From the IMG/VR virus record IMGVR_UViG_3300049893_003686: a stretch of 64,000 bases of DNA; one strand, given 5' to 3'. Origin of the DNA: a virus. Each line of letters begins with the position of its first letter. Position 1 is the stretch's first letter. The notes beneath the pieces are model-generated. The model did no database searches. It worked only from the letters and a program-made list of their open reading frames with translations, and was not told the DNA's origin. The position numbers and the translations under genes were made by a program. Below, in pieces: positions 679-42,346 of the stretch.

Positions 679-971
679 TTTCTTATGCTGTAGTTTATTT
701 TTATTCTGGGGCTTCTGGGGCTTCTTTGGTTTCTGGGGCTTCTAGGGCTTCTTGGATTTCTGGGGCTTCTAGGGCTTCTAGGGCTTCTAGGGCTTCTAGG
801 GCTTCTAGGATTTCTGAGGCTTCTGTGGCTTCTTGGGTTTCTGGGGCTTCTGGGGTTTCTGGGGCCTCTGGGGCCTCTGGGACTTCTAGGGTTTCTGGGG
901 CTTCTAGGGCTTCTTGGGTGTCTAGGGTTTCTTGGATTTCTAGGGCTTCTAGAGTAAGAGGCGGTAGATGA
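675..971 (+). CDS. Candidate small repeat protein (unit A3)
   Basis: Same architecture as units A1 and A2. The following copy (ATG 968) runs out of repeats and terminates after ~25 codons. Confidence 0.3.
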
Positions 972-1601
972 TTTCTTATGCTGTAGTTTATTTTTATGGT
1001 GAGGTTTCTGACGCTAACTCATATAGTAGGATATAAGGATCTATCTTTGACGCAGTAGCATCTACATCGGGATTACATCTTGATATAGCTGTTCGTGAGC
1101 ATAATTTTAATTTTCGCAAAGATCAATAGTTGCTAATAATATAGTTTATGATAAATAGCCTAAGTCTAATCCTTAATGTCTATCTATATAGAGATTTGCA
1201 ACAAACCTTATATCAAGGTCCGCAGTCAGTGGGTTATCGGTGTTTATGATTCTTCCCACTACATCATATAGACCTTATTACCAATATAGCTTAATTTAAA
1301 GCCCCGGATTGTAACTGGGAGATGCGAGCTTATATGCTCGCTATTGGTATTTGTAATTTACATATAATCGTATGCCAGTCGCACATACATCTGCTTATAG
1401 CACTTCGATATAATTATAGTTTATTCTGCTTAGAGGGCCATGTGATTACTTCATCACAGGCAGTCTAAAGCGATTTAAACCTTCTTGAAGAAAGCAATTA
1501 TATACACTAGAAAAATACCTAACCTAGATTAAGGAAGGGTAATTCCGTCAGAGGCAATTTTCTACTGCTATCGTATATGATTTTTATATCTCTACACTAG
1601 A

Positions 1602-1715
1602 AGGTTAATATCTTAGCGTCCAAGATATTAAATACTTTTGCGAAAAAACCGATCTATAAGATCACTGAGATCGCGGGGGAAAATATTCTTAGACAAATGC
1701 ATAGGGCGATCCGAG
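1602..1715 (+). repeat. Direct repeat copy 1 (114 bp) inside the gene-free core
   Basis: Matches 2172-2284 with 3 differences seen (two substitutions and one G indel in ..ATCACTGAGATCGCGGGGGA..). Contains the hairpin AATATCTT-agcgtcc-AAGATATT and the palindrome GATCT-ATA-AGATC. Confidence 0.95.
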
Positions 1716-2171
1716 TCTATACTTACTATTATTTCCTCAAGTAAATATATCCTAAGTACCCTATATAATTCTACGAGTTTATTCGACTAATGAGATTCTT
1801 CTTTTCGCGGCCAATAAATGGCACAGCCAGCTACTAGAAGCGCCTCATATTCGGTATAAACGCATTTTATAATAATAATTCTGAGCAACCCGCATAGGCC
1901 ATCTGGGCACCCATTTGGGTCTACTGTAATCATGTATATTTATAAGATTTTATCAAAGCCACTAGTGTGTGAAAAATATATTTGGGTTAATAAATTACTA
2001 ATCTACAATATCCTGCGGCAATTTTATAGTAGGCATCGCAGGTTGCAACATTTTCTATCTTGAAGATGGCGATAAGAATCCATTATATAGCGAGCGTTCT
2101 CACCAAGTGGAAATGTGTCACATCACATTAAGACAATCGTATATAGAGACATCCAGCAATAAATACCGCAT

Positions 2172-2284
2172 AGGTTAATATCTTAGCGTCCAAGATATTA
2201 AATACTTTTGCGAAAAAACCGATCTATAAGATAACCGAGATCGCGGGGAAAATATTCTTAGACAAATGCATAGGGCGATCCGAG
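2172..2284 (+). repeat. Direct repeat copy 2 (113 bp) inside the gene-free core
   Basis: See copy 1; same orientation, about 570 bp downstream. Confidence 0.95.
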
Positions 2285-2630
2285 GATTGGATCTAACACT
2301 ACTAGATCTATTCTAATACAATAGATAGTAACTTTAATTCTCTATATGTTAACCATACTCTAAACTTAAGAGTAATTCTAATCTACCAATATCATGCCTT
2401 TGCTATAAGATCTCCGATATCTATCAAAGCTATAAGTGCGTAATAATTTTTATTAGGTTAATACATTATTAACATTAATATAAATAACTGCCTAAATTCT
2501 ACACCCTAAGTCGCATTTCTTCAGATAATTAACTACACATTAACTGTGTGGGCAGCATACAGATGAGTTTGGTAACAGCTAACCCTAAAAACCTATACGA
2601 CATCATAATATAGCTATGGAGAGCGACGAG

Positions 2631-2846
2631 ATGATTTCTTATACGGCAATTTATTGGTATGGTGAAGATTCTAATACTTATGGGGTTTCTAGGGTTTCTG
2701 GGGATTATAGGGCTTCTTGGGCTTCTGGGACTTCTTGGGATTCTGCGGCTTCTAGTGTTTCTAGGGCTTCTAAGGTTTATAGGGCTTCTTGGGTTTCTGG
2801 GGTTTTTTGGGGTTATGTAATCTCCAGAGCAAGGAGTGGTCAATGA
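2631..2846 (+). CDS. Candidate small repeat protein (unit B1)
   Basis: The homologous ATGATTTCT start is at 2631; the ORF track extends it to an upstream ATG at 2616. ATGA junction at 2843-2846. Confidence 0.25.
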   Translation: MISYTAIYWYGEDSNTYGVSRVSGDYRASWASGTSWDSAASSVSRASKVYRASWVSGVFWGYVISRARSGQ

Positions 2847-3031
2847 TCTCTCATGCGACAGTTTATCTTTATGGTGGAGCTTATTGGACTTCTAAGGCTT
2901 CTAAGGCTTCTGGGATTTCTAAGGCCTCTTGGATTTCTAAGGCTTCTGGGGTTTCTAGGGTTTCTATGGCTTCTAGGGCTTCTGGGGGTTATGGGAGCTA
3001 TATAGTCTCCAGAGCAAGAGGTGGTAGATGA
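2843..3031 (+). CDS. Candidate small repeat protein (unit B2)
   Basis: AAGGAG lies 6 nt upstream of ATG 2843. ATGA junctions at both ends. Confidence 0.3.
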
Positions 3032-3279
3032 TTTCTCATGTGGGAGTTTATTTTTATTCTGTGGCTTCTTTGGTTTCTGGGGCTTCTTTGGTTTCTAGGG
3101 CCTCTAGGGCTTCTAGGGCTTCTAGGGCTTCTGTGGCTTCTGGGGCTTCTGGGGCTTTTAGGATTTCTGGGGTTTCTGGGGCTTCTTTGGTTTCTATGAC
3201 TTCTGGGGTTTCTGGGGCTTCTGGGGTTTCTGGGGCTTCTGGGGTTTCTGGGGTTTCTGGGGCAAGAGGTGGCAGATGA
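3028..3279 (+). CDS. Candidate small repeat protein (unit B3)
   Basis: AAGAGG-N6-ATG and ATGA junctions at both ends. Confidence 0.3.
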
Positions 3280-3551
3280 TTTCTCATGTGGGAGTTTATT
3301 TTTATTCTGGGGCTTCTTGGGTTTCTTGGGTTTCTGGGGTTTCTGTGACTTCTTGGGTTTCTAGGGTTTCTGGGGTTTCTGGGGTTTCTGTGACTTCTGG
3401 GGTTTCTGGGGTTTCTGGGGCTTCTGGGGTTTCTAGGGCTTCTAAGGCCTCTATGGTTTCTGGGGCAAGAGGTGGTAGATTATTTCTCATGTGGGAGTTT
3501 ATTGGTACGGCGAGGTTACTGGAGCGGACCTATTCGTATAGGAATAGATAA
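3276..3551 (+). CDS. Candidate small repeat protein (unit B4), reading through a decayed fifth linker
   Basis: AAGAGG-N6-ATG. The next junction is mutated (AGATTA instead of AGATGA), so the ORF continues to 3551. Confidence 0.25.
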
Positions 3552-17278: not shown

Positions 17279-18409
17279 ATGAAATTCCCTATTATCGAGC
17301 ACACAATTTTACTTACAATAGCAGGCTCTAGGAGTTACGGTATGCACAAAAGTGACTCCGATATAGACCTAAAAGGGATAGCCATCCCTCCTATAGATTC
17401 CTATATTGGAGTTTTACCAAATTTCGAACAAGTAGAGTCATCAGAAGCAATGATGGTATATTATCCTCTACTATCGAATGATGAGAAAGATATTTCAGAT
17501 AAATATAAGCTTGAAGGGGTTATATATGATTTGCGTAAATTCATACGACTGGCATCTGGTTCAAATCCCAATATCTTAGATGTATTATTTTGCGATGATG
17601 AGCACGTCAGGTTCTCATCAAAGGCAGGAGATATCATAAGGGCTAGCAGAGATCTATTCATATCTGCACAGGCTAAGCATACATATTCTGGTTATGCAAC
17701 GGCGCAATTTAAGCGCATTAAGACTCATAGGGGATATCTGCTAAATGCTCCAAAGACAGAGCCAGACAGGAGTGAGTTCGGTCTATCAAAGGACCACTGC
17801 ATTCCACGTGCCCAGGTAGAGGCATCTTTATCAGAGATTAATAAGAAACTTGATGAGTGGGAATTAGATCTTAGCTCTATAGATTCTGAGTCTGACAGAA
17901 TGTCGATATTAAATAATATTGCACAAGTACTATCAGAAATAATGTCAACAACTGACTCTAAATGGAAGAGCTCCGCTAGAAACATCGGCTATGGCGATAA
18001 CCTTATTGAAATTCTAGACAAGGAGCGTAGATTTAGACAGGCTAAGAACGAATGGGATAAATATCAATATTGGAAGAAGGGGCGAAACTCAGCACGAGCG
18101 AAACTAGAAGAAAAATACGGGTATGATACCAAGCACGCTTCTCACTTAGTTAGATTAATGAGGATGTGTTATGAGATTTTAGTAGATGGCAAGGTCAATG
18201 TCAATCGCAAGAAAATAGATGCCGATGAATTAGTTGCGATTCGAGATGGCTCATGGAGCTACGATAAGCTAGAGGAATTCTTTATAACGATGGATAATAA
18301 ATGCAGCGAGCTGTATAATAGTAAGTCATATAGCATTCCACATAGGGTAGATATGAGTGCGATAAATGCATTGTGCGTACAACTCATCTCCGATAAGTAC
18401 AAAATGTGA
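17279..18409 (+). CDS. Pol-beta-superfamily nucleotidyltransferase, RlaP-like (RNA-repair-associated family)
   Basis: The N-terminal GSRSYGMHKSDSDIDLKG matches the G-S-x-x-Y-G..S-D-x-D minimal NTase motif of that family, as I recall it. Confidence 0.6.
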   Translation: MKFPIIEHTILLTIAGSRSYGMHKSDSDIDLKGIAIPPIDSYIGVLPNFEQVESSEAMMVYYPLLSNDEKDISDKYKLEGVIYDLRKFIRLASGSNPNILDVLFCDDEHVRFSSKAGDIIRASRDLFISAQAKHTYSGYATAQFKRIKTHRGYLLNAPKTEPDRSEFGLSKDHCIPRAQVEASLSEINKKLDEWELDLSSIDSESDRMSILNNIAQVLSEIMSTTDSKWKSSARNIGYGDNLIEILDKERRFRQAKNEWDKYQYWKKGRNSARAKLEEKYGYDTKHASHLVRLMRMCYEILVDGKVNVNRKKIDADELVAIRDGSWSYDKLEEFFITMDNKCSELYNSKSYSIPHRVDMSAINALCVQLISDKYKM

Positions 18410-21406: not shown

Positions 21407-21607
21407 GTGACCACACATGTAGTATATCAAAGCACGGAACATACATTCATTATGTCTATTGATGATGAGGCGGAATTTGTGGCTCGCTTTTTTGGCGAAG
21501 ATGGTATTGACAATGATGAGTGGGAGAGGTTTGAGGTAGATGGTCCTGTAGAAATTGAGACCGCCAAACCATCAATTATTGATGTATATGAGACATATGA
21601 TATGTAA
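21407..21607 (+). CDS. Hypothetical acidic protein
   Basis: 66-aa ORF with a GTG start and AGGAGAG upstream. Confidence 0.45.
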   Translation: MTTHVVYQSTEHTFIMSIDDEAEFVARFFGEDGIDNDEWERFEVDGPVEIETAKPSIIDVYETYDM

Positions 21608-21655
21608 GTTATCTATTTAGATTCATGATATGAAAAGTTAGATCAGCTACCAAAT

Positions 21656-21785
21656 AGCGACATGGTGAAGTGGTATCACGTGAGAACAAACATCTCGGTT
21701 CTTTATAACCTTGCCAGATCTATGGCCGAATAAGAATCGTTATCTTAGTCAATCTTAAATCTCCTGTTCGATTCAGGATGTCGCT
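21656..21785 (+). tRNA. tRNA-like gene with canonical acceptor, D and T arms but about 60 nt of extra sequence in the anticodon/variable region; anticodon unassigned
   Basis: Acceptor AGCGACA/TGTCGCT, then T8-G9. D arm GTGA-AGTGGTA-TCAC with G18-G19. T arm TCCTG-TTCGATT-CAGGA. The 82 nt between 21680 and 21761 replace the expected ~23 nt. Confidence 0.5.
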
Positions 21786-21806
21786 GTCTTTTCAGGATTA
21801 GATATA

Positions 21807-22088
21807 ATGAATAAAATATGGATGTTAACTGCAGTAGTATTACTATCAGCATGTAATGATTCGCAATATGCACGACAAAAGGCATGTAAATCCGTACTAA
21901 CAATCTACTGTCATAAAGTAGCAGAATGCAGCTCTTCTTCAGAAGAAGAGTGCCTAGAGTTCATTGAAAGTAATGCATTGTGCAATAAAGAGATCAAATC
22001 TTATGTTAAGGAAATTTCAGAATGCGGCAAGGCTCTAAGTGCTAATGACTGTACTGGTCTGCCAGCAGAATGTACTACTCTAGAATAA
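21807..22088 (+). CDS. Cys-rich lipoprotein
   Basis: Signal peptide with a lipobox (VVLLSAC) and multiple Cys residues in the mature part. Confidence 0.7.
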   Translation: MNKIWMLTAVVLLSACNDSQYARQKACKSVLTIYCHKVAECSSSSEEECLEFIESNALCNKEIKSYVKEISECGKALSANDCTGLPAECTTLE

Positions 22089-23113: not shown

Positions 23114-23926
23114 ATGAAAAATTTTACGAGATTAGTTGGCGCACTTTCTATTGCTCTATTGCATGGCTGCGGCTGTGAAATTGTTGATCCAGGAAATAGA
23201 GGTGTGGTGGTAGAATGGGGTAAAGTACAAGAGCCAGCAAGAGGAGAGGGATTCCAAACTTATTGTCCAATTGGTTGTACCTTAGAGCAAGTAAGTGTGC
23301 GACAGCAAAAAATCGACGTAGCTGCACCATGCTTCAGCAGTGATTTACAACAGGTAAATCTTAATGTCACAGTCATGTATCGCATTCCTGAAAAGTCAGT
23401 TCCAGCTATTTTTCGAGATTTCCACGGAGAACCATTCGATGTACTAGTGTCACCACGAGTGCAGGAATCGATCAAAGAGGCTACAGCCACACGATCTGCT
23501 GAGATGATTGTTAAGGAAAGAGAAACAGTAAAGAATCTGGCACTTGAAGCAGTACGTAAAAAGGTTGGGCCAATCCTTGTAATTGAGGATATGATTATTT
23601 CAGATGTTAAATTAAGCAAGCAACTAACCGACTCAATTGAAAGCAAAATGGTACAAGAACAAGAAGCCGCAAAGGCGAAGTATATGCAACAACAAAAGCA
23701 AATTGAAGCAGATACTCGCGTATTGGAGGCCACTGCAGAGGCAAAGGCCACTCTAGCTCGTGCTCAAGCCGAGGCAGAGTCAATCAAAATTCGCGGCGAG
23801 GCACTGCAGGAGAATCCTGGAGTAGTCCAATTGCAACTGATTGAAAAGTGGAATGGCATTAGTCCCCAGATTATTTCCGGAGCAAGCGGAATAAATGTAC
23901 TACTACCAGCCTCAACCACAAAATAG
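23114..23926 (+). CDS. SPFH/band-7 (prohibitin-like) protein, lipoprotein-type signal
   Basis: The signal ends LLHGC. The SPFH core (..VVVEWGKV..NLNVTVMYRI..) is followed by an Ala/Glu/Gln-rich coiled coil. Confidence 0.85.
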   Translation: MKNFTRLVGALSIALLHGCGCEIVDPGNRGVVVEWGKVQEPARGEGFQTYCPIGCTLEQVSVRQQKIDVAAPCFSSDLQQVNLNVTVMYRIPEKSVPAIFRDFHGEPFDVLVSPRVQESIKEATATRSAEMIVKERETVKNLALEAVRKKVGPILVIEDMIISDVKLSKQLTDSIESKMVQEQEAAKAKYMQQQKQIEADTRVLEATAEAKATLARAQAEAESIKIRGEALQENPGVVQLQLIEKWNGISPQIISGASGINVLLPASTTK

Positions 23927-25708: not shown

Positions 25709-25792
25709 GGGCCAGTAGACGCGCTCCGCTCATAACGGAGTAAGGGTAATTTGGTTCTGAAAATGTGGGTTCAAGTCCCACCTGGCCCACCA
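25709..25792 (+). tRNA. Atypical tRNA-like element, copy 1 (CAU anticodon loop, no canonical D arm, 24-nt variable region, CCA encoded)
   Basis: Acceptor GGGCCAG/CTGGCCC. Hairpin CTCCG-CTCATAA-CGGAG. T arm GTGGG-TTCAAGT-CCCAC. Discriminator A followed by CCA. Only 8 nt (TAGACGCG) lie in the D-arm position. Identical to 42249..42332. Confidence 0.5.
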
Positions 25793-25936
25793 TTTACACG
25801 TACTCAATTCCTAATCTGACGTACGGTAATAGAATGATTAGGATCTCACTCTTCGGGATTTAAGAGCAACCCTTTAGCCTTAGGCGTTGTAGTACGGAGA
25901 GAAAAGGCCATCTTCTTTTAAGGAGAGCGTCAGCTA

Positions 25937-26560
25937 ATGCTTAGAGCTGAAGGTAAGCTGCCTAGAGATGTATACGTAGCTTGTTCTGGCGGCGTAGACA
26001 GTATGGCAGTGCTTGCGTTTTTAATGCGCCGAGAAGTTAAGCCACAAGTAGTCTACTTTAATCATAGGACTGATCATTCAGAAAAAGCAGAAGAACATGT
26101 ACGTACATTCTGCACTAAGCACGCCCTCAATCTTACCATAGGAACTATTCTTCGTGATCGCCTTAGCCGTGAGTCTAAAGAGGAATTTTGGCGAAACGAG
26201 AGATATAAATTCCTGCACGGACTATCTCTACCAGTAATTACAGCGCATAACTTAGACGATTGTATTGAAACATGGATCTTCTCTTCATTGCATGGAGAAG
26301 GAAAAATGATTCCATACAGAAATCGAAATGTAATTAGACCATTTAGACAAACACATAAGGCAGAGTTTATCAGATGGTGCACGAAGAATAACATCCCATG
26401 GATAGAGGACGAGTCAAATAAGAATATATTATTTGCACGCAATAGAATCAGACATGCACTTATGCCAGAAGTTCTAAAAATCAATCCTGGAATTTCTAAA
26501 GTAATTAGAAAGAAAATCTTGGCAGAAAGTGATATGCATAGGCTTTCCCCGCCACTCTAA
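25937..26560 (+). CDS. tilS: tRNA(Ile)-lysidine synthetase-like PP-loop ATPase (N-terminal catalytic domain only)
   Basis: PP-loop ACSGGVDSMAV, then ..VYFNHRTDHSEKAEEHVRTFC..L.. as in TilS. AAGGAGAG SD. At 207 aa it lacks the long TilS C-terminal domains. Confidence 0.7.
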   Translation: MLRAEGKLPRDVYVACSGGVDSMAVLAFLMRREVKPQVVYFNHRTDHSEKAEEHVRTFCTKHALNLTIGTILRDRLSRESKEEFWRNERYKFLHGLSLPVITAHNLDDCIETWIFSSLHGEGKMIPYRNRNVIRPFRQTHKAEFIRWCTKNNIPWIEDESNKNILFARNRIRHALMPEVLKINPGISKVIRKKILAESDMHRLSPPL

Positions 26561-28430: not shown

Positions 28431-28510
28431 GAGAATTAATCTAGATATAAGGTCACATTAACTATAACTATAGCGTCATGCTGGCGTATATAGGAATAAT
28501 CGGAGAAAAG

Positions 28511-30802
28511 ATGAAGAAATATATTTTCGCAACGCTACTGCTCGCAACTACAGCGGCAGCATCAAATAGCGATAAATCTCATCATGAAAAGGTGGAGATT
28601 TGTCATAAGGATCATCATGAAATTAGTGTCGACGAGCATGCTGTCGAGGCGCATATTGATCACGGCGATTGTCTCGGGACATGTCCATGCGCCCCATTGC
28701 CAGAATGCCAATCTGATGCTGATTGTACTAACGATCTATTCTGTGATGGCAACGAATCATGCCTCAATGGAAGCTGTGTGGCAGGAGAGTCTCCGTGTGA
28801 GCACAGCTTATCATGTGACGAAGTGGAAGACCTATGTGTGCAACAGCCAGATTGCATTACCGATAGCGATTGTGACGACGGAGTATTTTGTAATAATCAA
28901 GAATTATGTTTAAATGGCTCCTGTGTTTCTTTTGGAGATAGTCCATGCCCAGACTACATTTGTGTAGAAAAGTATGCCATATGCGTATTGCCACCAGAGT
29001 GTCATGTAGATGACGATTGTACGAATGGACTATTTTGCGACGGGCACGAATTATGTTCAAATGGAGCATGCGTATCCAATGTACTTCCATGCCCTGAAAC
29101 AGAACAGTGTGACGAAGAATCTGATGCTTGTTTTAATGCAGGTGAGGGTGAAGGAGAAGGCGAGGGAGAAGGTGAGGGTGAAGGAGAAGGCGAGGGAGAA
29201 GGTGAGGGTGAAGGAGAAGGCGAGGGAGAAGGTGAGGGTGAAGGAGAAGGCGAGGGAGAAGGTGAAGGCGAGGGTGAAGGTGCCGAGAAAACAAACTTAT
29301 TTGTCTCAGGGTCAGGGATTTTTTCATGCTCTGAGTCATCATCTCCAGACCTGTTTATACTTGCACTATTCTTGCCAGCACTGCTAATATCACAAAAGCG
29401 TAGGGCACTAGTAGCAACCTTAGTAATTGGACTATTTTCATTCTCTGCTTCTGCAGAAGGATTAAATCGTGTAGGTGGCCCAACATCATTTAACGATTCC
29501 CCGCAAGCATCATCAGCGGATCTACTGCCTAACCTTACATTGCAGACTGGTCTAAACTTAGATTACTCGCATGCTCCATTGGTGCTCAGAGACGTAGCTT
29601 TTATTAAGCATAGTGATTTGGTCGAACACCAATTCTCAAGTAGCATCAATGCAGCAATGGGATTTCGCGATGTCGTGCAATTAGATCTAGCATTGCCCAT
29701 TTCAGTCGCAACAGGACAGGGTTTAAATTTGGATGGAACACCATCAGCTGGTCTTCAGGATATGACAGCTGGTGTTAGATTGCGGTTGACTGACAGCAAA
29801 GCACCATTACGCACTGCCCTTAGCCTTAAAGGTACGATGCCAACATCGCTATTGTCATTTAATGGAATGCCAACATTTGGAGAGGTATTCCCGACGCTTA
29901 CCCCAGGAGTCTTACTTACTGCCGGCAATGAGTTGGCATCAGTTACACTAAATACAGGATACACTATTCGTATTCCTAAAAATGTAGCGGATCTTCAAAT
30001 GGGACATACTGTAAATGCAGCTGTAGGTGGACAACTGTGCTTACTTAAAGATAGCTTGTGGTTAGTCGGAGATGTTGGCACAAGTCTATCAGCACAAGGC
30101 TTGTTTACAAATCGATTATTTATGCCAGTAGAGGCGACACTTGGCTTTAAAGGAAAGCACGGTCCTTTCTATGGAATGGTAGCCGCTGGCTCTGGGCTAT
30201 TGCCCGACGTTGGGACCCCTGATGTGCGCGTTTTGGCTTCATTAGGTCTTAATTTTGACTTTGCAACTAAGCAGAAAGCACGTACCACTAGCAAGTTAGT
30301 TACAGAGCATAATCCTCTGCCACCTCCACTTGATTCCGATGGCGATGGGATCCTTGATCAAGATGATAAGTGTCCAAATGATCCAGAGGATTTTGATGGA
30401 TTTGAGGATTCAGATGGGTGCCCAGAGCAAGAGTTAGTAGTAATAGAGTCAGAAAAAATCATATTGTTATCCCCAGTGTACTTTTTCTTTGACTCAGATC
30501 AAATTAAACCAGAAAGCTTTCAAGTATTGAATGATGTGGCAACTGTACTAAAAGAGCATACTGAGATTAAGCTATTGTCTATTGAGGGGCATGCCTCAGC
30601 AGAAGGTGAATTGGATTATAACCAAGCACTTAGTGAACGCCGAGCTTTGGCAATAGTAAAATTCCTCCAAAAGGCAGGAGTTGCTACAGAACGACTTGTT
30701 GCACTCGGGCATGGAGAGAATAATCCGGCTGAATCAAATAAGACAAAAGCTGGACGTGAAAAAAATCGCCGCGTAGAGTTTCGTATTCTAGAAAAGCAGT
30801 GA
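28511..30802 (+). CDS. Composite OmpA-family envelope protein: signal peptide, 4 Cys-rich repeats, (EG)n tract, internal sorting-signal-like/TM pair, putative beta-barrel region, thrombospondin type-3 (DxDxDG) repeats, OmpA C-terminal peptidoglycan-binding domain
   Basis: GGAGAAAAG SD precedes ATG 28511 (MKKYIFATLLLATTAAAS). Four repeats match DxDCxxxxFCxGxExCxNGxC. The TSP3 repeats read DSDGDGILDQDDKCPNDPEDFDGFEDSDGCPE. The OmpA_C domain reads ..IEGHASAEG..YNQALSERRA..NRRVEF. Confidence 0.85.
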   Translation: MKKYIFATLLLATTAAASNSDKSHHEKVEICHKDHHEISVDEHAVEAHIDHGDCLGTCPCAPLPECQSDADCTNDLFCDGNESCLNGSCVAGESPCEHSLSCDEVEDLCVQQPDCITDSDCDDGVFCNNQELCLNGSCVSFGDSPCPDYICVEKYAICVLPPECHVDDDCTNGLFCDGHELCSNGACVSNVLPCPETEQCDEESDACFNAGEGEGEGEGEGEGEGEGEGEGEGEGEGEGEGEGEGEGEGEGEGEGEGAEKTNLFVSGSGIFSCSESSSPDLFILALFLPALLISQKRRALVATLVIGLFSFSASAEGLNRVGGPTSFNDSPQASSADLLPNLTLQTGLNLDYSHAPLVLRDVAFIKHSDLVEHQFSSSINAAMGFRDVVQLDLALPISVATGQGLNLDGTPSAGLQDMTAGVRLRLTDSKAPLRTALSLKGTMPTSLLSFNGMPTFGEVFPTLTPGVLLTAGNELASVTLNTGYTIRIPKNVADLQMGHTVNAAVGGQLCLLKDSLWLVGDVGTSLSAQGLFTNRLFMPVEATLGFKGKHGPFYGMVAAGSGLLPDVGTPDVRVLASLGLNFDFATKQKARTTSKLVTEHNPLPPPLDSDGDGILDQDDKCPNDPEDFDGFEDSDGCPEQELVVIESEKIILLSPVYFFFDSDQIKPESFQVLNDVATVLKEHTEIKLLSIEGHASAEGELDYNQALSERRALAIVKFLQKAGVATERLVALGHGENNPAESNKTKAGREKNRRVEFRILEKQ
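29141..29282 (+). repeat. Perfect 30-bp tandem repeat x4 plus a partial copy, encoding (GE)n inside the OmpA-family gene
   Basis: GGTGAGGGTGAAGGAGAAGGCGAGGGAGAA occurs at 29141, 29171, 29201 and 29231 with no mismatch seen. A divergent partial copy spans 29261-29282. Confidence 0.95.
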
Positions 30803-30857: not shown

Positions 30858-31628
30858 ATGAGCAGTAATGAACTTGGTTTGAAGATTAAAAGTTTATATG
30901 AAAATCGTACACGACTCTTGCTAGATCAAGATGAGTATATAATTATCAGAATTGATGGTAAGAATTTTTCAAGATATACTCGTAAGCTCAAAAAGCCATT
31001 CGATCAGGATCTTGCAGATGATTTCGACCAAACTGCTAAGATATTGTGCTCTCAAATCATGGGAGCACATATGGCATATACTCAAAGTGATGAGATAAGT
31101 ATTGTAGTTTCGAATTTTAGTTCTTCAGGTAAGGACATCTGGTTTAACGGAAATATACAAAAAATAGTTTCAGTATCATGTTCAATGGCAACAGCATCAT
31201 TTAATGATTCAAGAATAAAGCGAAGTGTTGATTATAAAGGTGGAATTTTTGATTCTAGGGTATTTACAATACCTGATCGCTCATCAGTATTAGAGTATTT
31301 AACCTGGAGACAAAAGGATGCAAGTAGAAATTCCATTTCCATGATTGCAAGAAGCGTAATGAGTAGTAAAGAAATGCATGGAATTTCTACTGGCAAAATA
31401 ATAGAGATTTTAAAAGATAGAGGAATAGACCTCAAAATATATAATCAAGGTCTATTGTATGGAAGAATTATTTTCAAAGAAAAATTTACAGTAACCGCTA
31501 CTCATAGTGAATACGGGATTGCTCAAAATTCTGATTCACTCAGAACAAGATGGGTAGCTAAGACAGCACCAAATTTCTCTAAAGAAGACATTTCCATAGA
31601 ATTGATTCCAGAAAGAAAGCTTTCTTGA
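30858..31628 (+). CDS. Thg1-like protein (tRNA-His guanylyltransferase / 3'-5' polymerase family, TLP)
   Basis: IIRIDGKNFSRYT..KPFDQDLADDF..MAYTQSDEISIV matches the Thg1 palm-domain blocks. Confidence 0.8.
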   Translation: MSSNELGLKIKSLYENRTRLLLDQDEYIIIRIDGKNFSRYTRKLKKPFDQDLADDFDQTAKILCSQIMGAHMAYTQSDEISIVVSNFSSSGKDIWFNGNIQKIVSVSCSMATASFNDSRIKRSVDYKGGIFDSRVFTIPDRSSVLEYLTWRQKDASRNSISMIARSVMSSKEMHGISTGKIIEILKDRGIDLKIYNQGLLYGRIIFKEKFTVTATHSEYGIAQNSDSLRTRWVAKTAPNFSKEDISIELIPERKLS

Positions 31629-33572: not shown

Positions 33573-33938
33573 ATGAAAGACATAACAAGAGAATATATTA
33601 AGTTCTTTGCAATAGAGGAACAGATAAATAATATACTAGATGATTTCTTTGCAATGCTAATGAATTCATTAAATACATATGATGCTAATTATTTTCTCAG
33701 ACTGAGAGCTGGCTTTGATATGATCCTTCTATCTGAGAAAATTGGAGCAATTTTAGAAGATACATTTTCAGATGCAGAGTTACAGGAAATAATTGTTCTA
33801 TATAAGGCAAACCCTGTTCTGCTCAAAGTATTAGATGCCAGAGATGTTATATCATCCGCTCAGGCTAAAGCCGGCCAGGAAATGGTTGAAGAGGCGCTAT
33901 GCAAGGTACCTTTTGTCGTTTCTGATGGGAGCTGTTAA
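33573..33938 (+). CDS. Hypothetical protein
   Basis: 121-aa ORF. Confidence 0.55.
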   Translation: MKDITREYIKFFAIEEQINNILDDFFAMLMNSLNTYDANYFLRLRAGFDMILLSEKIGAILEDTFSDAELQEIIVLYKANPVLLKVLDARDVISSAQAKAGQEMVEEALCKVPFVVSDGSC

Positions 33939-34588
33939 TGAAAGTCGTATGTGTGAGTGATACACATAATTATGCTAATTATGTAGAAATTCCAGAAGGA
34001 GATGTGCTGGTTCATGCTGGAGATTTTACAATGAGCGGCTCACAAAAAGAATTTGAAGCATTCGCTAGATGGCTGGCCACTTTGACACACGAACATGTTA
34101 TTATAGTAGCCGGCAATCATGACTGGTTGGCTGAAAAAGACCCAGTACAAGCCAGGCAAATTATTGAAGGGGCCAGGCATAACATACATTATTTAGTAGA
34201 TCAATCTATAATACTTAGTGGAATTAAATTCTACGGATCGCCATATCAGCCAGAGTTTCGTCAATGGGCATTTAATTTACCAAGAGGAGATAGAAGTAAA
34301 GAGAAATGGGCTGAAATACCTGATGATACGAACGTGTTAATCACACATGGTCCACCAATTATGATTGGAGATCAGGTACATAGGAGTGATACTATTGTAG
34401 TTGAAAATGTTGGATGCAAAGATCTAGCGGAGAGGATAGCTACATTATCACAATTAAAAGCTCATATATATGGGCATATTCATGACGGATATGGACATAG
34501 GGTGATTAATAATATCTCCTATATTAATGCATCTGCGTTGAATGATAAATATCAGATAGCCCATAAACCAATTTTACTTAATCTATAG
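33938..34588 (+). CDS. Calcineurin-like metallophosphoesterase (second copy type, MPPED/239FB-like)
   Basis: SDTH, AGDF, GNHD, THGPP and GHIH motifs in order. Confidence 0.8.
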   Translation: MKVVCVSDTHNYANYVEIPEGDVLVHAGDFTMSGSQKEFEAFARWLATLTHEHVIIVAGNHDWLAEKDPVQARQIIEGARHNIHYLVDQSIILSGIKFYGSPYQPEFRQWAFNLPRGDRSKEKWAEIPDDTNVLITHGPPIMIGDQVHRSDTIVVENVGCKDLAERIATLSQLKAHIYGHIHDGYGHRVINNISYINASALNDKYQIAHKPILLNL

Positions 34589-36039: not shown

Positions 36040-36435
36040 ATGCTGTTCAAGTACTTAACTTTGGATCCAATGGATAATTTGCTTGGGTCATTTGGGCGTA
36101 CATATAACTCAACCCACAATAAGCTACCAGCGAATATTTCATCTCAACAAGATAAATACGAAATAAGCATCCTTATTCCAGGATTTACCAAAGACGAGAT
36201 TAAGTTAACTGTAAGTGGTAATACTATGCTAATTTTAGCTGAAAAATCAACCATTTCTGATGTGGAATATTTCCATAAAGAATTTGCAATTGAAACAGTA
36301 GAGCGTAAAATATCATTACCTTCTTCAGTTAAGAAGGATGCCATTTCAGCATCATATAATGAAGGAATTCTGACCATTACACTCCCACACTCTAACTTAA
36401 GAAATGAGTCTTCCATTGAAATTCAAGTTTGCTAA
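36040..36435 (+). CDS. Hsp20/alpha-crystallin small heat-shock protein
   Basis: The alpha-crystallin domain reads ..ISILIPGFTKDEIKLTVSGNTMLILAEK..ISLPSSV..ISASYNEGILTITLP. A GGAGG SD precedes ATG 36040. Confidence 0.85.
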   Translation: MLFKYLTLDPMDNLLGSFGRTYNSTHNKLPANISSQQDKYEISILIPGFTKDEIKLTVSGNTMLILAEKSTISDVEYFHKEFAIETVERKISLPSSVKKDAISASYNEGILTITLPHSNLRNESSIEIQVC

Positions 36436-37300
36436 CAATCACCATAATGGTATAGATTACTGTATCATCTATCATGCTAACTGTGCCGACGGCTTTGCGG
36501 CTGCTTGGGCCATATGGAAAGTGCTAGGGGACCAGCTGGCCAGCTATCATCCGGCAGCATACGGCTCAGAGCCACCTGAAGAAATAAAGGATAGGCACGT
36601 AGTTATAGTAGATTTTTCATACTCTCGTAAGGTTCTTGAAGAAATCAAGAGCAAGGCAAAAAGCCTGTTAGTTCTCGATCATCATAAAAGTGCTGAAGAG
36701 AGTTTGCGTGATTTCGAGGGAGCTCATTTTGATATGAATCGCAGCGGGGCCGGTATGGCATGGGATTATTTCCATGAAAAGCCCCGTCCGCCACTCATTA
36801 ATTATGTAGAGGATCGAGACTTATGGAACTGGAAGCTGCCATATGCTAAAGAACTAACCGCTATGTTTGAAATTGATAATCAATCATTTCAAGATCTCTC
36901 TGAATTTAATAGCAAGTTAGAGTCACCTGAAGAATTTCAAGTCTTGGTAACTAAGGGGTCTGCTGTCCTAGAATATAAGAATTCTAGAGTTAAAATGCTG
37001 TCCTCCAAACCTTATATGGTAGACATATCCAGTATATGTATGTTAGATGACCTGACATTGCAGATTCCATGTGTCAATTCTCAACTTTTTCAAAGTGAAA
37101 TTGGTAATGTTTTGGCTCAAAAGCATCCAATGGCAATAGTTTGGTATCGCGCAGAAGACGGATCATATAGACACTCATTGCGTTCGAATGGCAAAATTGA
37201 TTGTAGCAAGATTGCTCAATTTTGGGGAGGCGGGGGTCATGCAAATGCAGCAGGATTTACAACGCAAGAACCCTTAGTTAGAATGGATGATAAAAGCTAA
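36404..37300 (+). CDS. DHH/DHHA1-family phosphoesterase
   Basis: YHANCADGFAAAW, the DHH motif in VLDHHKS, and the C-terminal GGGGHANAAG (DHHA1 GGGH). Confidence 0.8.
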   Translation: MSLPLKFKFANNHHNGIDYCIIYHANCADGFAAAWAIWKVLGDQLASYHPAAYGSEPPEEIKDRHVVIVDFSYSRKVLEEIKSKAKSLLVLDHHKSAEESLRDFEGAHFDMNRSGAGMAWDYFHEKPRPPLINYVEDRDLWNWKLPYAKELTAMFEIDNQSFQDLSEFNSKLESPEEFQVLVTKGSAVLEYKNSRVKMLSSKPYMVDISSICMLDDLTLQIPCVNSQLFQSEIGNVLAQKHPMAIVWYRAEDGSYRHSLRSNGKIDCSKIAQFWGGGGHANAAGFTTQEPLVRMDDKS

Positions 37301-37320: not shown

Positions 37321-37484
37321 TGATGGACCCACAAGCCATCAGTTGGTCGCTAAAAGACTCGGCAAGGGCTGCCGCTATAATAGCCTATATTTATTAGTTT
37401 AATAGCTTATTAAACCACCCACAAGCAGATATATACATATGCCTTAATTTTAAGGTAGTATTATGTACTGCTTGTGGGTGGGTT
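37321..37484 (+). ncRNA. Candidate structured RNA upstream of the Ro60/TROVE gene (possible Y-RNA-like or regulatory element)
   Basis: First hairpin: TGATGG-ACCCACAAG-CCATCA (37321-37341). Second, long hairpin at 37413-37484: AACCACCCACAAGCAG..CTGCTTGTGGGTGGGTT, with 14 perfect bp, a bulged G and an inner CCTTAA-tt-TTAAGG. CCCACAAGC occurs twice and its complement once. Confidence 0.35.
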
Positions 37485-37506
37485 ATTAATAACTATATAC
37501 TGATAT

Positions 37507-37852: not shown

Positions 37853-39460
37853 ATGTCAATATTAAATACCGATGCAACTCAAACTCAGATATATGATAAT
37901 CGACAGATAAGAAATTCTGCTGGCGGCTATTCATTTGCAGTGGAAAATATGGATTATGTGCGGCGATTTCTAATTTTAGGAAGCGAGGGCGCGCAATATA
38001 GCCTACAGAATAGGCCAACTCTGTCGTTAGAGAACTGCCCGCATATATTGTTTATGCTAGATGCCGATGGCCAAAAAGTAGTAGAAGAGCTGGTCAAGGT
38101 ATCATTACAAGGCAGGGCGCCGAAGCAAGAGCCGACACTATTCGTATTAGCACTGGCAGCTAGACATAAGGATCTCGCTGTGCGTAAAGCCGCATTTGAT
38201 GCCGTGCAGAAGGTATGTCGCACAGCAACTATGCTATTTACCTTCTTAGATTTCTATAAAAAGTCCGGGGTGACATCTGGCTGGGGTCGCCTTATGCGAG
38301 ATGCGATATCGTCATGGTATAATAATAAGGATTTGCAATCTTTAATATATCAAGTTACGAAATATGGTAGTAGAAATGGGTGGTCGCATCAAGATGTGCT
38401 ACGTTTAGCACACACAAGGCCAGTAGATCAAGATCATTCTCTGTTATATAAGAAGATTACTTCTAAAAATAAGTTTAATATCGACATCAATATCGCTTCT
38501 GATAAGAATGCTTTTAATAAACTGCTAGCCATTGAAGCGGTGAAATTAGCAACAGAGGCAAAAAGTATCATCCCGTTAATTACAGAATTTAATTTAGTAC
38601 ATGAGCAGGTACCATCATCGCTAAAGCTTTGTCCCGATGTATGGGATGCATTGCTAGATAATATGCCATTAACTGCATTAATTCGTAATCTAGGAGCGAT
38701 GACATCCTCCGGGTTGCTTGTTAATGGAAATAGTGCTTCAAGAAGAGTGAGAGAAAAGCTATCTAATTTAGATACAATTAAGAGTGCAAGAATACATCCA
38801 TTTAATGTACTCACAGCATACAATACCTATGCAAAAGGAGTTGGTCAATTAGGTCACAAAAAATGGAACCCTAGTGAAGATATTATTGAAGCGCTAGATA
38901 GCCTATTCTATACCTCATTTACATTTATAGATCCATCGCATAAGCGCACACATCTCGCTATTGATGTATCGCGTTCGATGGATATGGGTACAATTCTTGG
39001 CTCGCCGGGGATGTCTCCTCGATTCGGCGCAGCCGCAATGTCAATGGCAACGCTGCGTTCTGAGGATAATGTTTCGATGAGCGCATTTTCGCATACATTA
39101 GTACCGCTACAATTTTCACCCAAAGATGATTTGCAGACAGTTATCAAGAAGATGAGGTCTATTAAAATGGGCGCCACAGATTGCGCCCTACCAATAACCA
39201 CTGCCATGCAGTCGAAGACCCCTATTGATACATTTGTTATATATACCGATAATGAAACTTGGTTCGGAAACGTTCACCCAATGGCAGCATTGCGCCAATA
39301 TCGAGATAGAATGGGAATTCCTGCCAGACTCATTGTCGTTGCAATGAAAGAAACAAACTTTACCATTGCAGATCCCGAAGATGCGGGTGCATTGGATGTA
39401 GTTGGATTTGATTCTGCCACTCCAGCTGTCATAGCAGAATTTTCACGCGGGGAGTTATAA
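37853..39460 (+). CDS. Ro60-related TROVE-domain protein with a C-terminal vWA domain
   Basis: The N-terminal NSAGGYSFAVENMDYVRRFLILGSEGAQY is characteristic of Ro/Rsr. The MIDAS DxSxS motif appears as IDVSRSM. 535 aa. Confidence 0.9.
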   Translation: MSILNTDATQTQIYDNRQIRNSAGGYSFAVENMDYVRRFLILGSEGAQYSLQNRPTLSLENCPHILFMLDADGQKVVEELVKVSLQGRAPKQEPTLFVLALAARHKDLAVRKAAFDAVQKVCRTATMLFTFLDFYKKSGVTSGWGRLMRDAISSWYNNKDLQSLIYQVTKYGSRNGWSHQDVLRLAHTRPVDQDHSLLYKKITSKNKFNIDINIASDKNAFNKLLAIEAVKLATEAKSIIPLITEFNLVHEQVPSSLKLCPDVWDALLDNMPLTALIRNLGAMTSSGLLVNGNSASRRVREKLSNLDTIKSARIHPFNVLTAYNTYAKGVGQLGHKKWNPSEDIIEALDSLFYTSFTFIDPSHKRTHLAIDVSRSMDMGTILGSPGMSPRFGAAAMSMATLRSEDNVSMSAFSHTLVPLQFSPKDDLQTVIKKMRSIKMGATDCALPITTAMQSKTPIDTFVIYTDNETWFGNVHPMAALRQYRDRMGIPARLIVVAMKETNFTIADPEDAGALDVVGFDSATPAVIAEFSRGEL

Positions 39461-42248: not shown

Positions 42249-42332
42249 GGGCCAGTAGACGCGCTCCGCTCATAACGGAGTAAGGGTAATTTGGTTCTGA
42301 AAATGTGGGTTCAAGTCCCACCTGGCCCACCA
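42249..42332 (+). tRNA. Atypical tRNA-like element, copy 2 (identical to 25709..25792)
   Basis: The 84 nt are identical by eye, including the CCA. Identity continues for 3 nt (TTT) downstream, while the upstream flanks differ. Confidence 0.5.
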
Positions 42333-42346
42333 TTTTAACATCTTAG

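What the first reader, a model, noticed from the sequence alone, without database searches (positions are those of the whole stretch)
21656..21785. tRNA gene with textbook acceptor, D and T arms but about 60 nt of extra sequence where the anticodon arm should be
Seen:
- Acceptor AGCGACA/TGTCGCT (7 bp), followed by T8.
- D arm GTGA-AGTGGTA-TCAC with G18-G19.
- T arm TCCTG-TTCGATT-CAGGA.
- 82 nt (21680-21761) sit where about 23 nt are expected.
- TGAGA (21681-21685) can pair locally with TCTCG (loop ACAAACA, no U33). It can also pair with either of two downstream TCTTA copies (21743-21747 or 21753-21757). The second option leaves a normal 4-nt variable loop and 67 nt of loop plus insert.
- An internal hairpin TAAGA-ATCGTTA-TCTTA has a U33-containing 7-nt loop.
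- No CCA is encoded, unlike the tRNA-Arg at 25568.

Inference: this may be an intron-containing tRNA, but the insert is far too short for a group I intron. It could also be a tRNA disrupted by a small insertion, or a tRNA-derived ncRNA. None of these is usual for a bacterial virus.
Basis: partly seen in the sequence, partly recalled or inferred. Interest (0 to 1): 0.6.

Follow-up and report, generated by a model that had tools for sequence, protein, structure and literature searches.

The report
tRNA-shaped Y RNA, partner of Ro60
The odd "tRNA with 60 extra bases" is not an intron-containing tRNA but most likely a Y RNA, the small RNA partner of the Ro60 protein encoded in the same genome, built as a normal tRNA whose anticodon loop is replaced by a Ro60-binding hairpin, a layout I could not find described and that links tRNAs to the known bacterial Y RNAs.

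Summary
Window 21656-21786 (+) has a 7-bp acceptor stem, a D arm, a T arm and 82 nt between them.

The intron reading is not supported. The extra sequence is the most conserved part of the element. It forms a hairpin, UUGCCA-loop-UGGC(C)GA, which is the bulged-C Ro60-binding helix of Y RNAs. That hairpin sits on an 8-bp stem and is followed by the Y-RNA motif GUUAUC.

A covariance model found 115 distinct homologues in phage contigs, metagenomes and many bacterial phyla.
- 95% of pair cells form standard pairs, and 26 of 29 pairs show compensatory changes.
- In 56 of 73 loci a Ro60 gene lies within 1.5 kb.
- The window itself encodes Ro60 at 37853-39460.

A second model was built only from in-silico circularly permuted copies. 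It finds natural YrlA Y RNAs full length, with E down to 1e-22, including ones next to Ro60 in cultured phages. The element is therefore a YrlA-type Y RNA in unpermuted tRNA topology, with free acceptor ends. CCA is encoded in 13% of homologues.

I rate it a new variant of a known kind. RNA expression, end processing and Ro60 binding are inferred, not shown.

The parts
21656..21786 (+). Whole element: a tRNA-topology Y RNA of 131 nt, including discriminator G21786
   Evidence: Model R1 scores it 79.2 bits, E 2e-14, over model positions 1-124. All helices are mapped.
21656..21662 (+). Acceptor stem, 5' strand. It pairs with 21779-21785 (7 bp). U8 is at 21663.
   Evidence: Sequence. All 7 family pairs covary and 98.6% of cells are paired.
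21665..21679 (+). D arm: GUGA, loop AGUGGUA, UCAC. A14, G15 and G18-G19 are present. G15 can form the Levitt pair with C21761.
   Evidence: The 15:48 pair is G:C in 38 and A:U in 16 of 60 homologues.
21681..21685 (+). Outer anticodon-type stem, 5' strand UGAGA. It pairs with UCUUA 21753-21757 and is followed by the 4-nt variable loop AAUC 21758-61.
   Evidence: Sequence. The same stem is fully paired (5 of 5) in 6 of 36 homologues, against 2.9% in a partner-shuffle control. It is present in a subclass only.
21696..21703 (+). 5' strand CGGUUCUU of an 8-bp stem equivalent to the Y-RNA upper stem. It pairs with AAGAAUCG 21732-21739.
   Evidence: CM alignment. RNAalifold finds this stem unprompted. 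Covariation is 92% and 78% paired in its two halves.
21711..21729 (+). Ro60-binding-type hairpin UUGCCA-GAUCUA-UGGC(C)GA. Pairs are U21711-A21729, U21712.G21728, G21713-C21726, C21714-G21725, C21715-G21724 and A21716-U21723. C21727 is bulged.
   Evidence: 95.4% paired; 5 of 7 pairs have compensatory changes. The motif matches GGUCCGA/GNCGAA, described as the Ro60 contact site (PMC4201824).
21739..21744 (+). GUUAUC motif. It matches the conserved YUAY of YrlA and the UUAUC of sbRNAs and vertebrate Y RNAs.
   Evidence: TTATC is invariant in alignment A3, though the search patterns required it. Literature: PMC4201824 (YUAY), PMC4726728 (UUAUC).
21762..21778 (+). T arm: UCCUG, loop UUCGAUU, CAGGA
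   Evidence: 100% paired, 4 of 5 pairs covary.
21779..21785 (+). Acceptor stem, 3' strand. Discriminator G21786 follows; no CCA is encoded.
   Evidence: CCA is encoded in 15 of 115 homologues.
37853..39460 (+). Ro60 orthologue (TROVE plus Ro60 vWA domains), the presumed protein partner
   Evidence: Pfam PF05731 at 4.3e-39 and PF25045 at 5e-62. It is 35-41% identical to annotated 'Ro-like RNA binding protein' genes in 353 GenBank phage records.

Best explanation
The locus encodes a Y RNA, the non-coding partner of the Ro60 protein. It belongs to the YrlA (tRNA-mimicking) kind but keeps the native tRNA order: acceptor 5' strand, D arm, anticodon-type stem, T arm, acceptor 3' strand.

The 7-nt anticodon loop is replaced by a 67-nt module (21686-21752). 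This module consists of:
- a short linker;
- an 8-bp 'upper' stem;
- an internal loop;
- a distal helix UUGCCA/UGGC(C)GA with a bulged C, closed by a 6-nt loop;
- the GUUAUC motif at the junction.

Proposed mechanism (inferred). The RNA is transcribed with its neighbours and trimmed like a tRNA, by RNase P at the 5' end and by 3' trimming with CCA addition at the 3' end. It folds into the tRNA L-shape, since U8, A14, G18-G19, G15:C48 and the T loop are all present. The bulged helix docks on the outer surface of the phage Ro60 ring. The tRNA-like elbow and acceptor end then recruit a tRNA-binding or exonucleolytic effector such as host PNPase. This would gate or retarget Ro60 during infection, within a genome rich in tRNA-repair genes.

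Shown here: family membership, structure by covariation, genomic linkage to Ro60, and circular-permutation homology with YrlA. Inferred: expression, end processing, Ro60 binding and the effector.
For: 1. Motifs. The insert holds UUGCCA-loop-UGGC(C)GA followed 9 nt later by GUUAUC. Homologues carry UUGACC-loop-GGUCCGA, the exact metazoan Ro-binding sequence.
2. Family. Model R1 finds 61 elements at 68 bits or more in viral and metagenome loci, and 68 elements with E<=1e-10 (56 of them carried into the distinct-element count) in 100 bacterial genome loci. That gives 115 distinct elements.
3. Structure. RNAalifold on a plain MAFFT alignment recovers the acceptor, D, T, Ro hairpin and upper stem. 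On the 61-sequence alignment, 95.4% of cells are paired against 69.5% in shuffles, 26 of 29 pairs have double changes, and slid controls reach at most 48%. The tertiary Levitt 15:48 pair covaries.
4. Linkage. 56 of 73 loci with such an element have a Ro60 gene within 1.5 kb, median about 310 nt. The window encodes Ro60.
5. Permutation. Model R2 was built only from computationally permuted elements. It hits natural YrlA-topology RNAs full length: L045 at 95 bits, E 1.6e-22, and L026 913-1043, the same element that Rfam RF02553 YrlA hits at E 5.6e-5. It also hits elements next to Ro60 in phages Sparky, Mareelih and Trina.
6. tRNA-like 3' end. CCA follows the discriminator in 15 of 115 elements and is the commonest trinucleotide there.
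7. Literature. YrlA has GNCGAA near its 5' end, then YUAY, then T arm, acceptor-like hairpin and D arm. M. smegmatis YrlA is cut by RNase P and receives CCA (PMC4201824). Phage Ro60 binds phage Y-like RNAs and host PNPase (PMC12135203).
Against: - There are no expression, end-mapping or binding data for this RNA.
- In the window the element lies 16 kb from Ro60, not beside it. The same holds for its closest relatives (L002, L003, L005, L012), where no Ro60 is in the fetched DNA.
- Rfam's YrlA model does not hit the element. This is expected for a permuted topology but is still a failed test.
- No convincing promoter or terminator flanks it.
- The window's Ro motif is UGGCCGA rather than GGUCCGA or GGGCCGA.
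- The family was collected with patterns that required the Ro motif, RTTATC and the T loop. Conservation of those three motifs is therefore partly by construction. The helices, the Ro60 linkage and the R2 result are not.
Confidence: 0.82

Rival explanations
1. An intron-containing tRNA-Asp(GUC). A 60-nt intervening sequence would be removed from the anticodon region to give a 74-nt decoding tRNA.
For: ARAGORN -i gives this call. G73, G2:C71, G10 and GUC resemble the E. coli Asp identity set; this is from my own knowledge, not tested.
Against: - The proposed loop has A33, and the intron position 31/32 is non-canonical.
- The 'intron' is the conserved, covarying, Ro-motif-bearing part of the element.
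- Across 115 homologues ARAGORN -i yields 39 different anticodons and scattered intron positions. Near-identical L002 and L003 are called Phe and Gln.
- There is no BHB motif at the borders; matches equal shuffle expectation.
- There is no group I intron or ribozyme hit, and 60-67 nt is too short for group I.
Confidence: 0.03
2. A tRNA pseudogene or a tRNA broken by a small insertion, with no function.
For: Default tRNA finders reject it.
Against: All 29 modelled pairs but one are intact in the window. The inserted part is conserved and covaries over distant phyla. Relatives keep the same long element at the same neighbourhood rather than an uninterrupted tRNA.
Confidence: 0.03
3. A tRNA-like RNA of the same family whose main role here does not depend on Ro60. 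Examples are a decoy or sponge for host anticodon nucleases or tRNA-modifying enzymes, or an aminoacylatable or CCA-bearing mimic used by the phage's tRNA-repair enzymes (RlaP, Thg1-like).
For: - The element is 16 kb from Ro60 but within 4 kb of RlaP and near Band-7, Thg1-like and TilS-like genes.
- It has a free acceptor end.
- CCA is encoded in 13% of homologues.
Against: The Ro-binding helix with its bulged C is retained intact in the window, which would be unnecessary without Ro60. At family level, linkage to Ro60 is very tight.
Confidence: 0.1
4. A class-II-like tRNA with anticodon arm UGAGA-ACAAACA-UCUCG (anticodon AAA) and a giant 64-nt variable region.
For: The local hairpin is the thermodynamically preferred pairing in the single-sequence fold.
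Against: There is no U33. The hairpin is absent from homologues, where this stretch is an A-rich linker. In homologues UGAGA-type 5' strands pair with a 3' strand just before the variable loop.
Confidence: 0.01

Closest known systems
YrlA (Y RNA-like A; Rfam RF02553; Chen et al. 2014, PMC4201824; structure preprint 10.1101/312249)
   Same: - It has the same modules in the same cyclic order: Ro motif (GNCGAA/GGNCCGA), about 9 nt, YUAY/GUUAUC, V region, T arm, acceptor-type stem, D arm, and the strand that pairs with the Ro motif.
- The tRNA tertiary nucleotides and Levitt-pair covariation are shared.
- It is encoded next to Ro60.
- A model made from permuted copies of the present family finds YrlA-topology elements full length, including one that Rfam's YrlA model hits below its gathering score.
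   Different: - The topology differs. YrlA has its 5' and 3' ends in the Ro-binding stem and a closed acceptor hairpin, described as a 'circularly permuted tRNA'. Here the ends are in a 7-bp acceptor stem with a discriminator, and the Ro-binding stem is closed by a loop.
- Rfam RF02553 does not detect it.
- An extra 5-bp anticodon-type stem is kept in the window's subclass.
Mycobacterium smegmatis YrlA (PMC4201824)
   Same: It has a 7-bp acceptor stem that is recognised as tRNA-like. [quoted passage not shown]
   Different: In M. smegmatis the free ends arise by cutting a permuted precursor, which leaves a two-piece RNA. Here the gene itself is unpermuted and the RNA would be one piece.
Deinococcus radiodurans Yrn1 (PMC4201824)
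   Same: It is a Ro60-bound RNA with tRNA-like features in the D, stem-loop, T order.
   Different: In Yrn1 the Ro-binding stem sits where the acceptor stem would be, and a small 5-bp, 6-nt 'anticodon arm' is present. Here a true acceptor stem is present and the Ro-binding helix replaces the anticodon loop.
Metazoan Y RNAs and nematode sbRNAs (PMC4726728)
   Same: They share a lower stem with a single bulged C (GGUCCGA/UUGACC), an upper stem, and then a UUAUC motif. Some homologues carry the identical GGUCCGA/UUGACC sequences.
   Different: The metazoan RNAs have no tRNA-like domain, and their ends lie at the Ro-binding stem.
tmRNA
   Same: It is a tRNA-like RNA with free acceptor ends, in which the anticodon arm is replaced by a large functional insert.
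   Different: The present element has no mRNA-like reading frame or pseudoknots and no G3:U70 pair. It is linked to Ro60 rather than SmpB.

Membership tests
Y RNA (Ro60-associated ncRNA), YrlA kind | Ro60-contact motif (GGUCCGA / GNCGAA) able to form a helix with a bulged C | tested here: met
   The helix UUGCCA/UGGC(C)GA lies at 21711-29 with C21727 bulged. In the family this helix is 95.4% paired and covaries.
Y RNA (Ro60-associated ncRNA), YrlA kind | Encoded in a genome with a Ro60 orthologue, usually within a few kb of it | tested here: inconclusive
   The window encodes Ro60 at 37853-39460, but that is 16 kb away. At family level, 56 of 73 loci have Ro60 within 1.5 kb.
Y RNA (Ro60-associated ncRNA), YrlA kind | tRNA-like domain with T arm, D arm, acceptor-type stem and tRNA tertiary nucleotides | tested here: met
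   U8 is present in 59 of 60, A14 in 60 of 60, and the 15:48 pair is G:C or A:U in 54 of 60.
Y RNA (Ro60-associated ncRNA), YrlA kind | Conserved YUAY after the Ro motif, before the V region and T arm | tested here: met
   GUUAUC lies at 21739-44, 9 nt after the Ro motif. Caveat: the search patterns required RTTATC.
Y RNA (Ro60-associated ncRNA), YrlA kind | Order T arm, closed acceptor hairpin, D arm, with RNA ends in the Ro-binding stem (permuted topology) | tested here: not met
   The order here is acceptor 5' strand, D, Ro hairpin, T, acceptor 3' strand. The element is solitary in the window, so no cross-unit register is possible.
Y RNA (Ro60-associated ncRNA), YrlA kind | Score at or above the Rfam RF02553 gathering threshold (69 bits) | tested here: not met
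   There is no RF02553 hit at E<=10 on 21550-21900 or at E<=5 on 17-45 kb. Even a natural YrlA-topology element reached only 37.8 bits.
Y RNA (Ro60-associated ncRNA), YrlA kind | Physical binding to Ro60, and stability that depends on Ro60 | not testable with these tools
   This needs EMSA or co-IP and a Ro60 knockout.
tRNA (RF00005) | Cloverleaf with a 7-nt anticodon loop, detected by tRNA covariance or heuristic models | tested here: not met
   There is no RF00005 hit at E<=10 and no default ARAGORN call. 67 nt replace the anticodon loop.
Intron-containing tRNA (group I or archaeal BHB type) | A recognisable splicing signal (group I core or bulge-helix-bulge at the exon-intron borders) and an anticodon conserved among orthologues | tested here: not met
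   There is no Intron_gpI or ribozyme hit. BHB-like matches number 4 against 2.6 in shuffles, and none lies at the borders. Homologues are assigned 39 different 'anticodons'.
tmRNA | tRNA-like domain plus tag reading frame; detected by ARAGORN -m or RF00023 | tested here: not met
   ARAGORN -m finds nothing and there is no RF00023 hit.

The most novel reading that the evidence does not exclude
tRNA-topology Y RNAs would be a widespread, so far overlooked class that is the structural link between tRNAs and YrlA. In this view a tRNA acquired a Ro60-binding helix in place of its anticodon loop, and the known YrlA layout arose from it by tandem duplication (permutation by duplication).

Three observations fit this.
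- The elements often lie in arrays of 2-6.
- In 16 of 30 neighbouring pairs, the 3' acceptor strand of one unit can pair with the 5' acceptor strand of the next.
- The permuted-copy model R2 hits across unit borders in such arrays.

Because these RNAs keep a free N73(-CCA) end, they might also be CCA-added, aminoacylated, or used as bait for tRNA-directed enzymes while tethered to Ro60. The class may also explain why few YrlA RNAs were found in cyanobacteria and delta-proteobacteria in 2014. Hits overlapping tandem tRNA genes were discarded in that study (PMC4201824), and those are phyla where this class is abundant.
Probability: 0.4. Interest if true: 0.75.

Novelty: new variant of a known kind. 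Interest (0 to 1): 0.62.

Why it matters
Y RNAs and Ro60 occur from bacteria to humans, where Ro60 is a major lupus and Sjogren autoantigen. The origin of Y RNAs and the role of the bacterial tRNA-like domain remain open questions.

- The published view is that YrlA is a circularly permuted tRNA that may have arisen from dimeric tRNA transcripts. An unpermuted form, common in phages and in at least six bacterial phyla and often tandemly repeated, supplies the missing intermediate and makes that model testable by phylogeny.
- It gives experimenters a one-piece Y RNA with authentic tRNA ends. With it they can test RNase P and CCA processing, aminoacylation, and which tRNA-binding effector Ro60 is tethered to.
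- On the practical side, these genes are currently missed, or are mis-called as 'intron tRNAs', 'tRNA-OTHER' or odd tRNAs. Some reach the Rfam tRNA threshold. Genome annotation and counts of phage tRNAs are therefore affected.

Tried and rejected
- Exact or degenerate DNA pattern of the window's own D and T arms in IMG/VR: no hit.
- blastn of 4 kb around the locus against GenBank phages: no hit.
- The search for related loci with the two neighbouring proteases in IMG/VR: no relatives.
- Exact look-ups of the two small neighbouring ORFs: not on record.
- Rfam at relaxed thresholds for ribozymes, introns, YrlA or tmRNA at the locus: only a chance snoRNA hit.
- tmRNA and mitochondrial-tRNA modes of ARAGORN: nothing.
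- Single-sequence MFE fold: z = -2.3. It prefers four small local hairpins that are not conserved in homologues, so I rejected it as the structure.
- A pairing AUAAC/GUUAU seen by eye in two sequences: not general, dropped.
- The outer anticodon-type stem as a family feature: only a subclass has it, so it was left out of the model.
- Promoter and terminator scan: nothing above shuffle expectation near the element.
- BHB scan: at chance level.
- The long inverted repeat at 37407-37489 upstream of Ro60, considered as a candidate classical Y RNA: it lacks the Ro motif, so it was not pursued.
- Two reviews that might mention this topology (PMC10870794, PMC6047535) are not held. The novelty claim therefore rests on the papers I could read and on Rfam 15.

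Full report
**1. The observation**

- A 7-bp acceptor stem, 21656-62 with 21779-85, followed by U8.
- A D arm, GUGA-AGUGGUA-UCAC.
- A T arm, UCCUG-UUCGAUU-CAGGA.
- Discriminator G, with no encoded CCA.
- 82 nt where a tRNA has about 23.

Standard detectors do not call it.
- ARAGORN in default mode finds only tRNA-Arg at 25568.
- Rfam at gathering thresholds finds three tRNA hits elsewhere in the window.
- A relaxed Rfam scan of 21550-21900 finds no tRNA, intron, ribozyme, tmRNA or YrlA.
- The single-sequence fold is only mildly better than shuffles, z = -2.3.

**2. Context**

The window has no nucleotide match in GenBank phages. It encodes a set of RNA-repair and tRNA-maintenance genes typical of large phages (PMC7824862):
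- a Ro60 orthologue with TROVE and Ro60-vWA domains at 37853-39460;
- an RlaP nucleotidyltransferase at 17279-18409;
- a Band-7/SPFH protein at 23114-23926;
- a PP-loop (TilS-like) ATPase at 25937-26560;
- a Thg1-like tRNA-His guanylyltransferase at 30858-31628;
- also NAMPT, a Lon/Clp-like protease, a ligase and DHH and metallophosphatase enzymes.

No structural genes lie in this window, so 'phage' is an inference from gene content.

**3. Relatives of the locus**

Homologues of the neighbouring trypsin-like protease, about 55% identical, led to syntenic contigs. These carry tRNA-like elements of 122-126 nt in the same neighbourhood.

Their 'inserts' contain UUGACC-loop-GGUCCGA. These are the two strands of the Ro60-binding helix of Y RNAs, with its bulged C, but joined by a loop. 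GUUAUC follows 9 nt later. The window's version is UUGCCA-GAUCUA-UGGC(C)GA, then 9 nt, then GUUAUC.

Chen et al. (PMC4201824) describe bacterial YrlA Y RNAs as follows: GNCGAA near the 5' end, a conserved YUAY, a T arm, a closed acceptor-like hairpin, a D arm, and a 3' strand. The new element has the same parts in the same cyclic order but cut at a different place.

**4. The family**

I scanned with the pattern GGKYCGA-N6-13-RTTATC-N17-31-GTTCGAATC.
- IMG/VR gave 48 loci.

The hits fall into two topologies. One is the YrlA order. The other is the tRNA order: acceptor 5' strand, D arm, Ro hairpin, GUUAUC, T arm, acceptor 3' strand.

RNAalifold on a plain MAFFT alignment of 32 tRNA-order elements recovered, without guidance, the acceptor, D and T stems, the Ro hairpin helix and a two-part stem beneath it.

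Covariance model R1 gave these results.
- The window element scores 79.2 bits.
- Ordinary tRNAs score 55 bits or less.
- It finds 61 elements at 68 bits or more in viral and metagenome loci.
- It finds 68 more with E<=1e-10 in 100 bacterial genome loci. These come from Longimicrobium, cyanobacteria, Myxococcota including Sorangium, Planctomycetota, Armatimonadota and Chloroflexota.
- Counting the 61 elements and 56 of those 68, there are 115 distinct sequences of 119-140 nt, with one at 106 nt.

**5. Structure support**

On the 61-sequence model alignment:
- 95.4% of pair cells are standard pairs, against 69.5% in column shuffles and at most 48% when partners are slid;
- 26 of 29 pairs show changes on both sides;
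- every helix covaries.

The alignment was fitted to the model, which favours the structure. The independent RNAalifold result gives the same helices.

tRNA tertiary signatures are kept:
- U8 in 59 of 60;
- A14 in 60 of 60;
- a TTCGAAT-type T loop;
- the Levitt 15:48 pair as G:C in 38 and A:U in 16 of 60. This covariation is the same one reported for YrlA (PMC4201824).

In the window the mapped pairs are:
- acceptor 21656-62 with 21779-85;
- D stem 21665-68 with 21676-79;
- stem 21696-703 with 21732-39;
- Ro helix 21711-16 with 21723-29, C21727 bulged;
- T stem 21762-66 with 21774-78;
- G15 with C21761.

A 5-bp anticodon-type stem, 21681-85 with 21753-57, followed by a 4-nt variable loop, is present in the window. 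A fully paired version occurs in 6 of 36 homologues, against 2.9% in controls. In this subclass the cloverleaf is therefore complete, and only the anticodon loop is replaced, by 67 nt.

**6. Link to Ro60**

Of 73 loci other than the window with a tRNA-order element, 56 contain a Ro60 gene. It always lies within 1.5 kb of the element or array, with a median distance of about 310 nt. The exceptions are short contigs and the window's own clade.

In the window, Ro60 is 16 kb downstream. No other element with the Ro motif, or matching R2, occurs in the window.

**7. Circular permutation test**

I cut 32 tRNA-order elements in the Ro hairpin loop, joined their acceptor ends with GAAA, aligned them and built model R2. 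R2 contains no natural YrlA.

R2 finds natural YrlA-order elements over its whole length:
- L045 9672-9796 at 95 bits, E 1.6e-22;
- dozens more at E 1e-20 to 1e-12;
- L026 913-1043 at 64.7 bits, the element that Rfam's YrlA model (RF02553) hits at E 5.6e-5;
- elements beside the annotated Ro genes of Mycobacterium phage Sparky, Gordonia phage Mareelih and Rhodococcus phage Trina.

R1 finds no tRNA-order element in those four cultured-phage loci. The two topologies are therefore homologous circular permutations of one another.

**8. Against the intron and pseudogene readings**

- ARAGORN -i of 115 family members 'intron tRNAs', with 39 different anticodons and insertion points from 31 to 41. 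Near-identical L002 and L003 come out as Phe and Gln.
- BHB-like motifs occur at shuffle frequency, and none lies at the borders.
- There is no group I or ribozyme signal.
- The 'insert' is the conserved part of the element.

**9. tRNA-like ends and arrays**

CCA follows the discriminator in 15 of 115 elements and is the commonest trinucleotide there. This fits tRNA-type 3' maturation, as seen for M. smegmatis YrlA (PMC4201824).

Elements often form arrays with gaps of 3-109 nt. Within-unit acceptor pairing is 7 of 7 in 104 of 117 units. [quoted passage not shown] Such arrays can be read in either register. This is what permutation by duplication predicts. It also fits the 'dimeric tRNA' origin model cited in the preprint 10.1101/312249. 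The window's element is solitary, so only the tRNA register applies.

**10. Mechanism (inferred)**

By analogy with studied Ro60 and Y RNA systems, the hairpin binds the outer face of Ro60 and the tRNA-like domain recruits an effector. The studied systems are the Ro60-Y RNA-PNPase complexes in Deinococcus and Salmonella (PMC4201824) and a Thermus phage Ro60 that binds phage Y-like RNAs and host PNPase (PMC12135203).

The specific twist here is a free acceptor end. Its consequences for CCA addition, charging or a decoy role are open.

**11. Novelty**

The papers I could read describe YrlA as a permuted tRNA with a closed acceptor, and Yrn1 with the Ro stem at the acceptor position (PMC4201824, 10.1101/312249). 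The 2014 survey discarded hits overlapping tandem tRNA genes and found few YrlA RNAs in cyanobacteria and delta-proteobacteria, which are phyla where the tRNA-order form is common here.

Rfam 15 has no family for the tRNA-order form; some members are picked up as tRNA. Literature searches found no description of it. Two reviews could not be read.

I therefore rate it a new variant of a known kind, with moderate-to-high interest. The caveats are that nothing is shown experimentally and that the motif-based collection biases the family towards the motifs used.

Noticed in passing
window 25709-25795 and 42249-42335 (+): Two 100% identical 87-nt copies of an odd tRNA-like gene. The features are acceptor GGGCCAG, a D arm reduced to about 3 nt, anticodon loop CUCAUAA (CAU), a variable insert of about 21-24 nt, a normal T arm and encoded CCA. 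Rfam tRNA scores them 42.1 bits, while default ARAGORN does not call them. One copy sits right before a PP-loop/TilS-like gene (25937-26560), which suggests a lysidine-modified tRNA-Ile2-like RNA. The other copy is 2.8 kb downstream of Ro60. Model R1 does not hit them.
   Followed up: partly
window 17279-18409, 23114-23926, 25937-26560, 30858-31628, 33938-34588, 36404-37300: A cluster of tRNA/RNA-repair-type genes: RlaP nucleotidyltransferase, Band-7/SPFH lipoprotein, TilS-like PP-loop ATPase, Thg1-like tRNA-His guanylyltransferase, a metallophosphatase and a DHH/DHHA1 phosphoesterase. No RtcB was found among the ORFs scanned. Rhodococcus phage Trina also has a Band-7-like gene right after Ro (L304).
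   Followed up: partly
window 37407-37489: A perfect 15-bp inverted repeat (ACCACCCACAAGCAG ... CTGCTTGTGGGTGGT) with a loop of about 40 nt, 370 nt upstream of Ro60. Rfam gives chance-level miRNA-type hits on both strands. It has no Ro motif and its function is unknown.
   Followed up: partly
window 1-3500: Dense 9-nt periodic repeats, in blocks spaced by about 250-290 nt, plus a 44-nt repeat family with 9 copies. They look like a repetitive, collagen-like or similar coding or intergenic array.
   Followed up: no
window 29110-29300: Tandem GGTGAGGGTGAAGGAGAAGGCGAGGGAGAA repeats (Gly-Glu-rich) inside the 774-aa ORF 28478-30802.
   Followed up: no
L064 209-281 and L138 1900-1968: Rfam's nematode stem-bulge RNA family (RF01656, homologues of Y RNAs) gives near-threshold hits (35.4 and 33.1 bits, gathering score 38) between the tRNA-order Y RNA and Ro60. 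This is probably a second, simple stem-loop Y RNA (YrlB-like) in these bacterial loci.
   Followed up: no
L304 2631-2839 (Rhodococcus phage Trina, NC_042040.1 84277-84485): A 209-nt feature annotated as a pseudo 'tRNA-OTHER' just upstream of the Ro gene overlaps the YrlA-order elements found by R2 (2555-2687, 2770-2896). It is an example of Y RNAs being mis-annotated as aberrant tRNAs.
   Followed up: partly
L002 c[1915-2002] and equivalents in L003, L004, L005 and L007: ARAGORN -i also calls an 88-nt 'tRNA-Asn(GTT) with a 10-nt intron' next to tRNA-Gln in the window's relatives. It was not examined.
   Followed up: no
L001 (Logan contig SRR35532387_15236872): A 1.7-kb contig that encodes the window's trypsin-like protein exactly ends at about window position 21788, right at the 3' edge of the element. 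This may be an assembly break at the tRNA-like sequence or simply low coverage.
   Followed up: no
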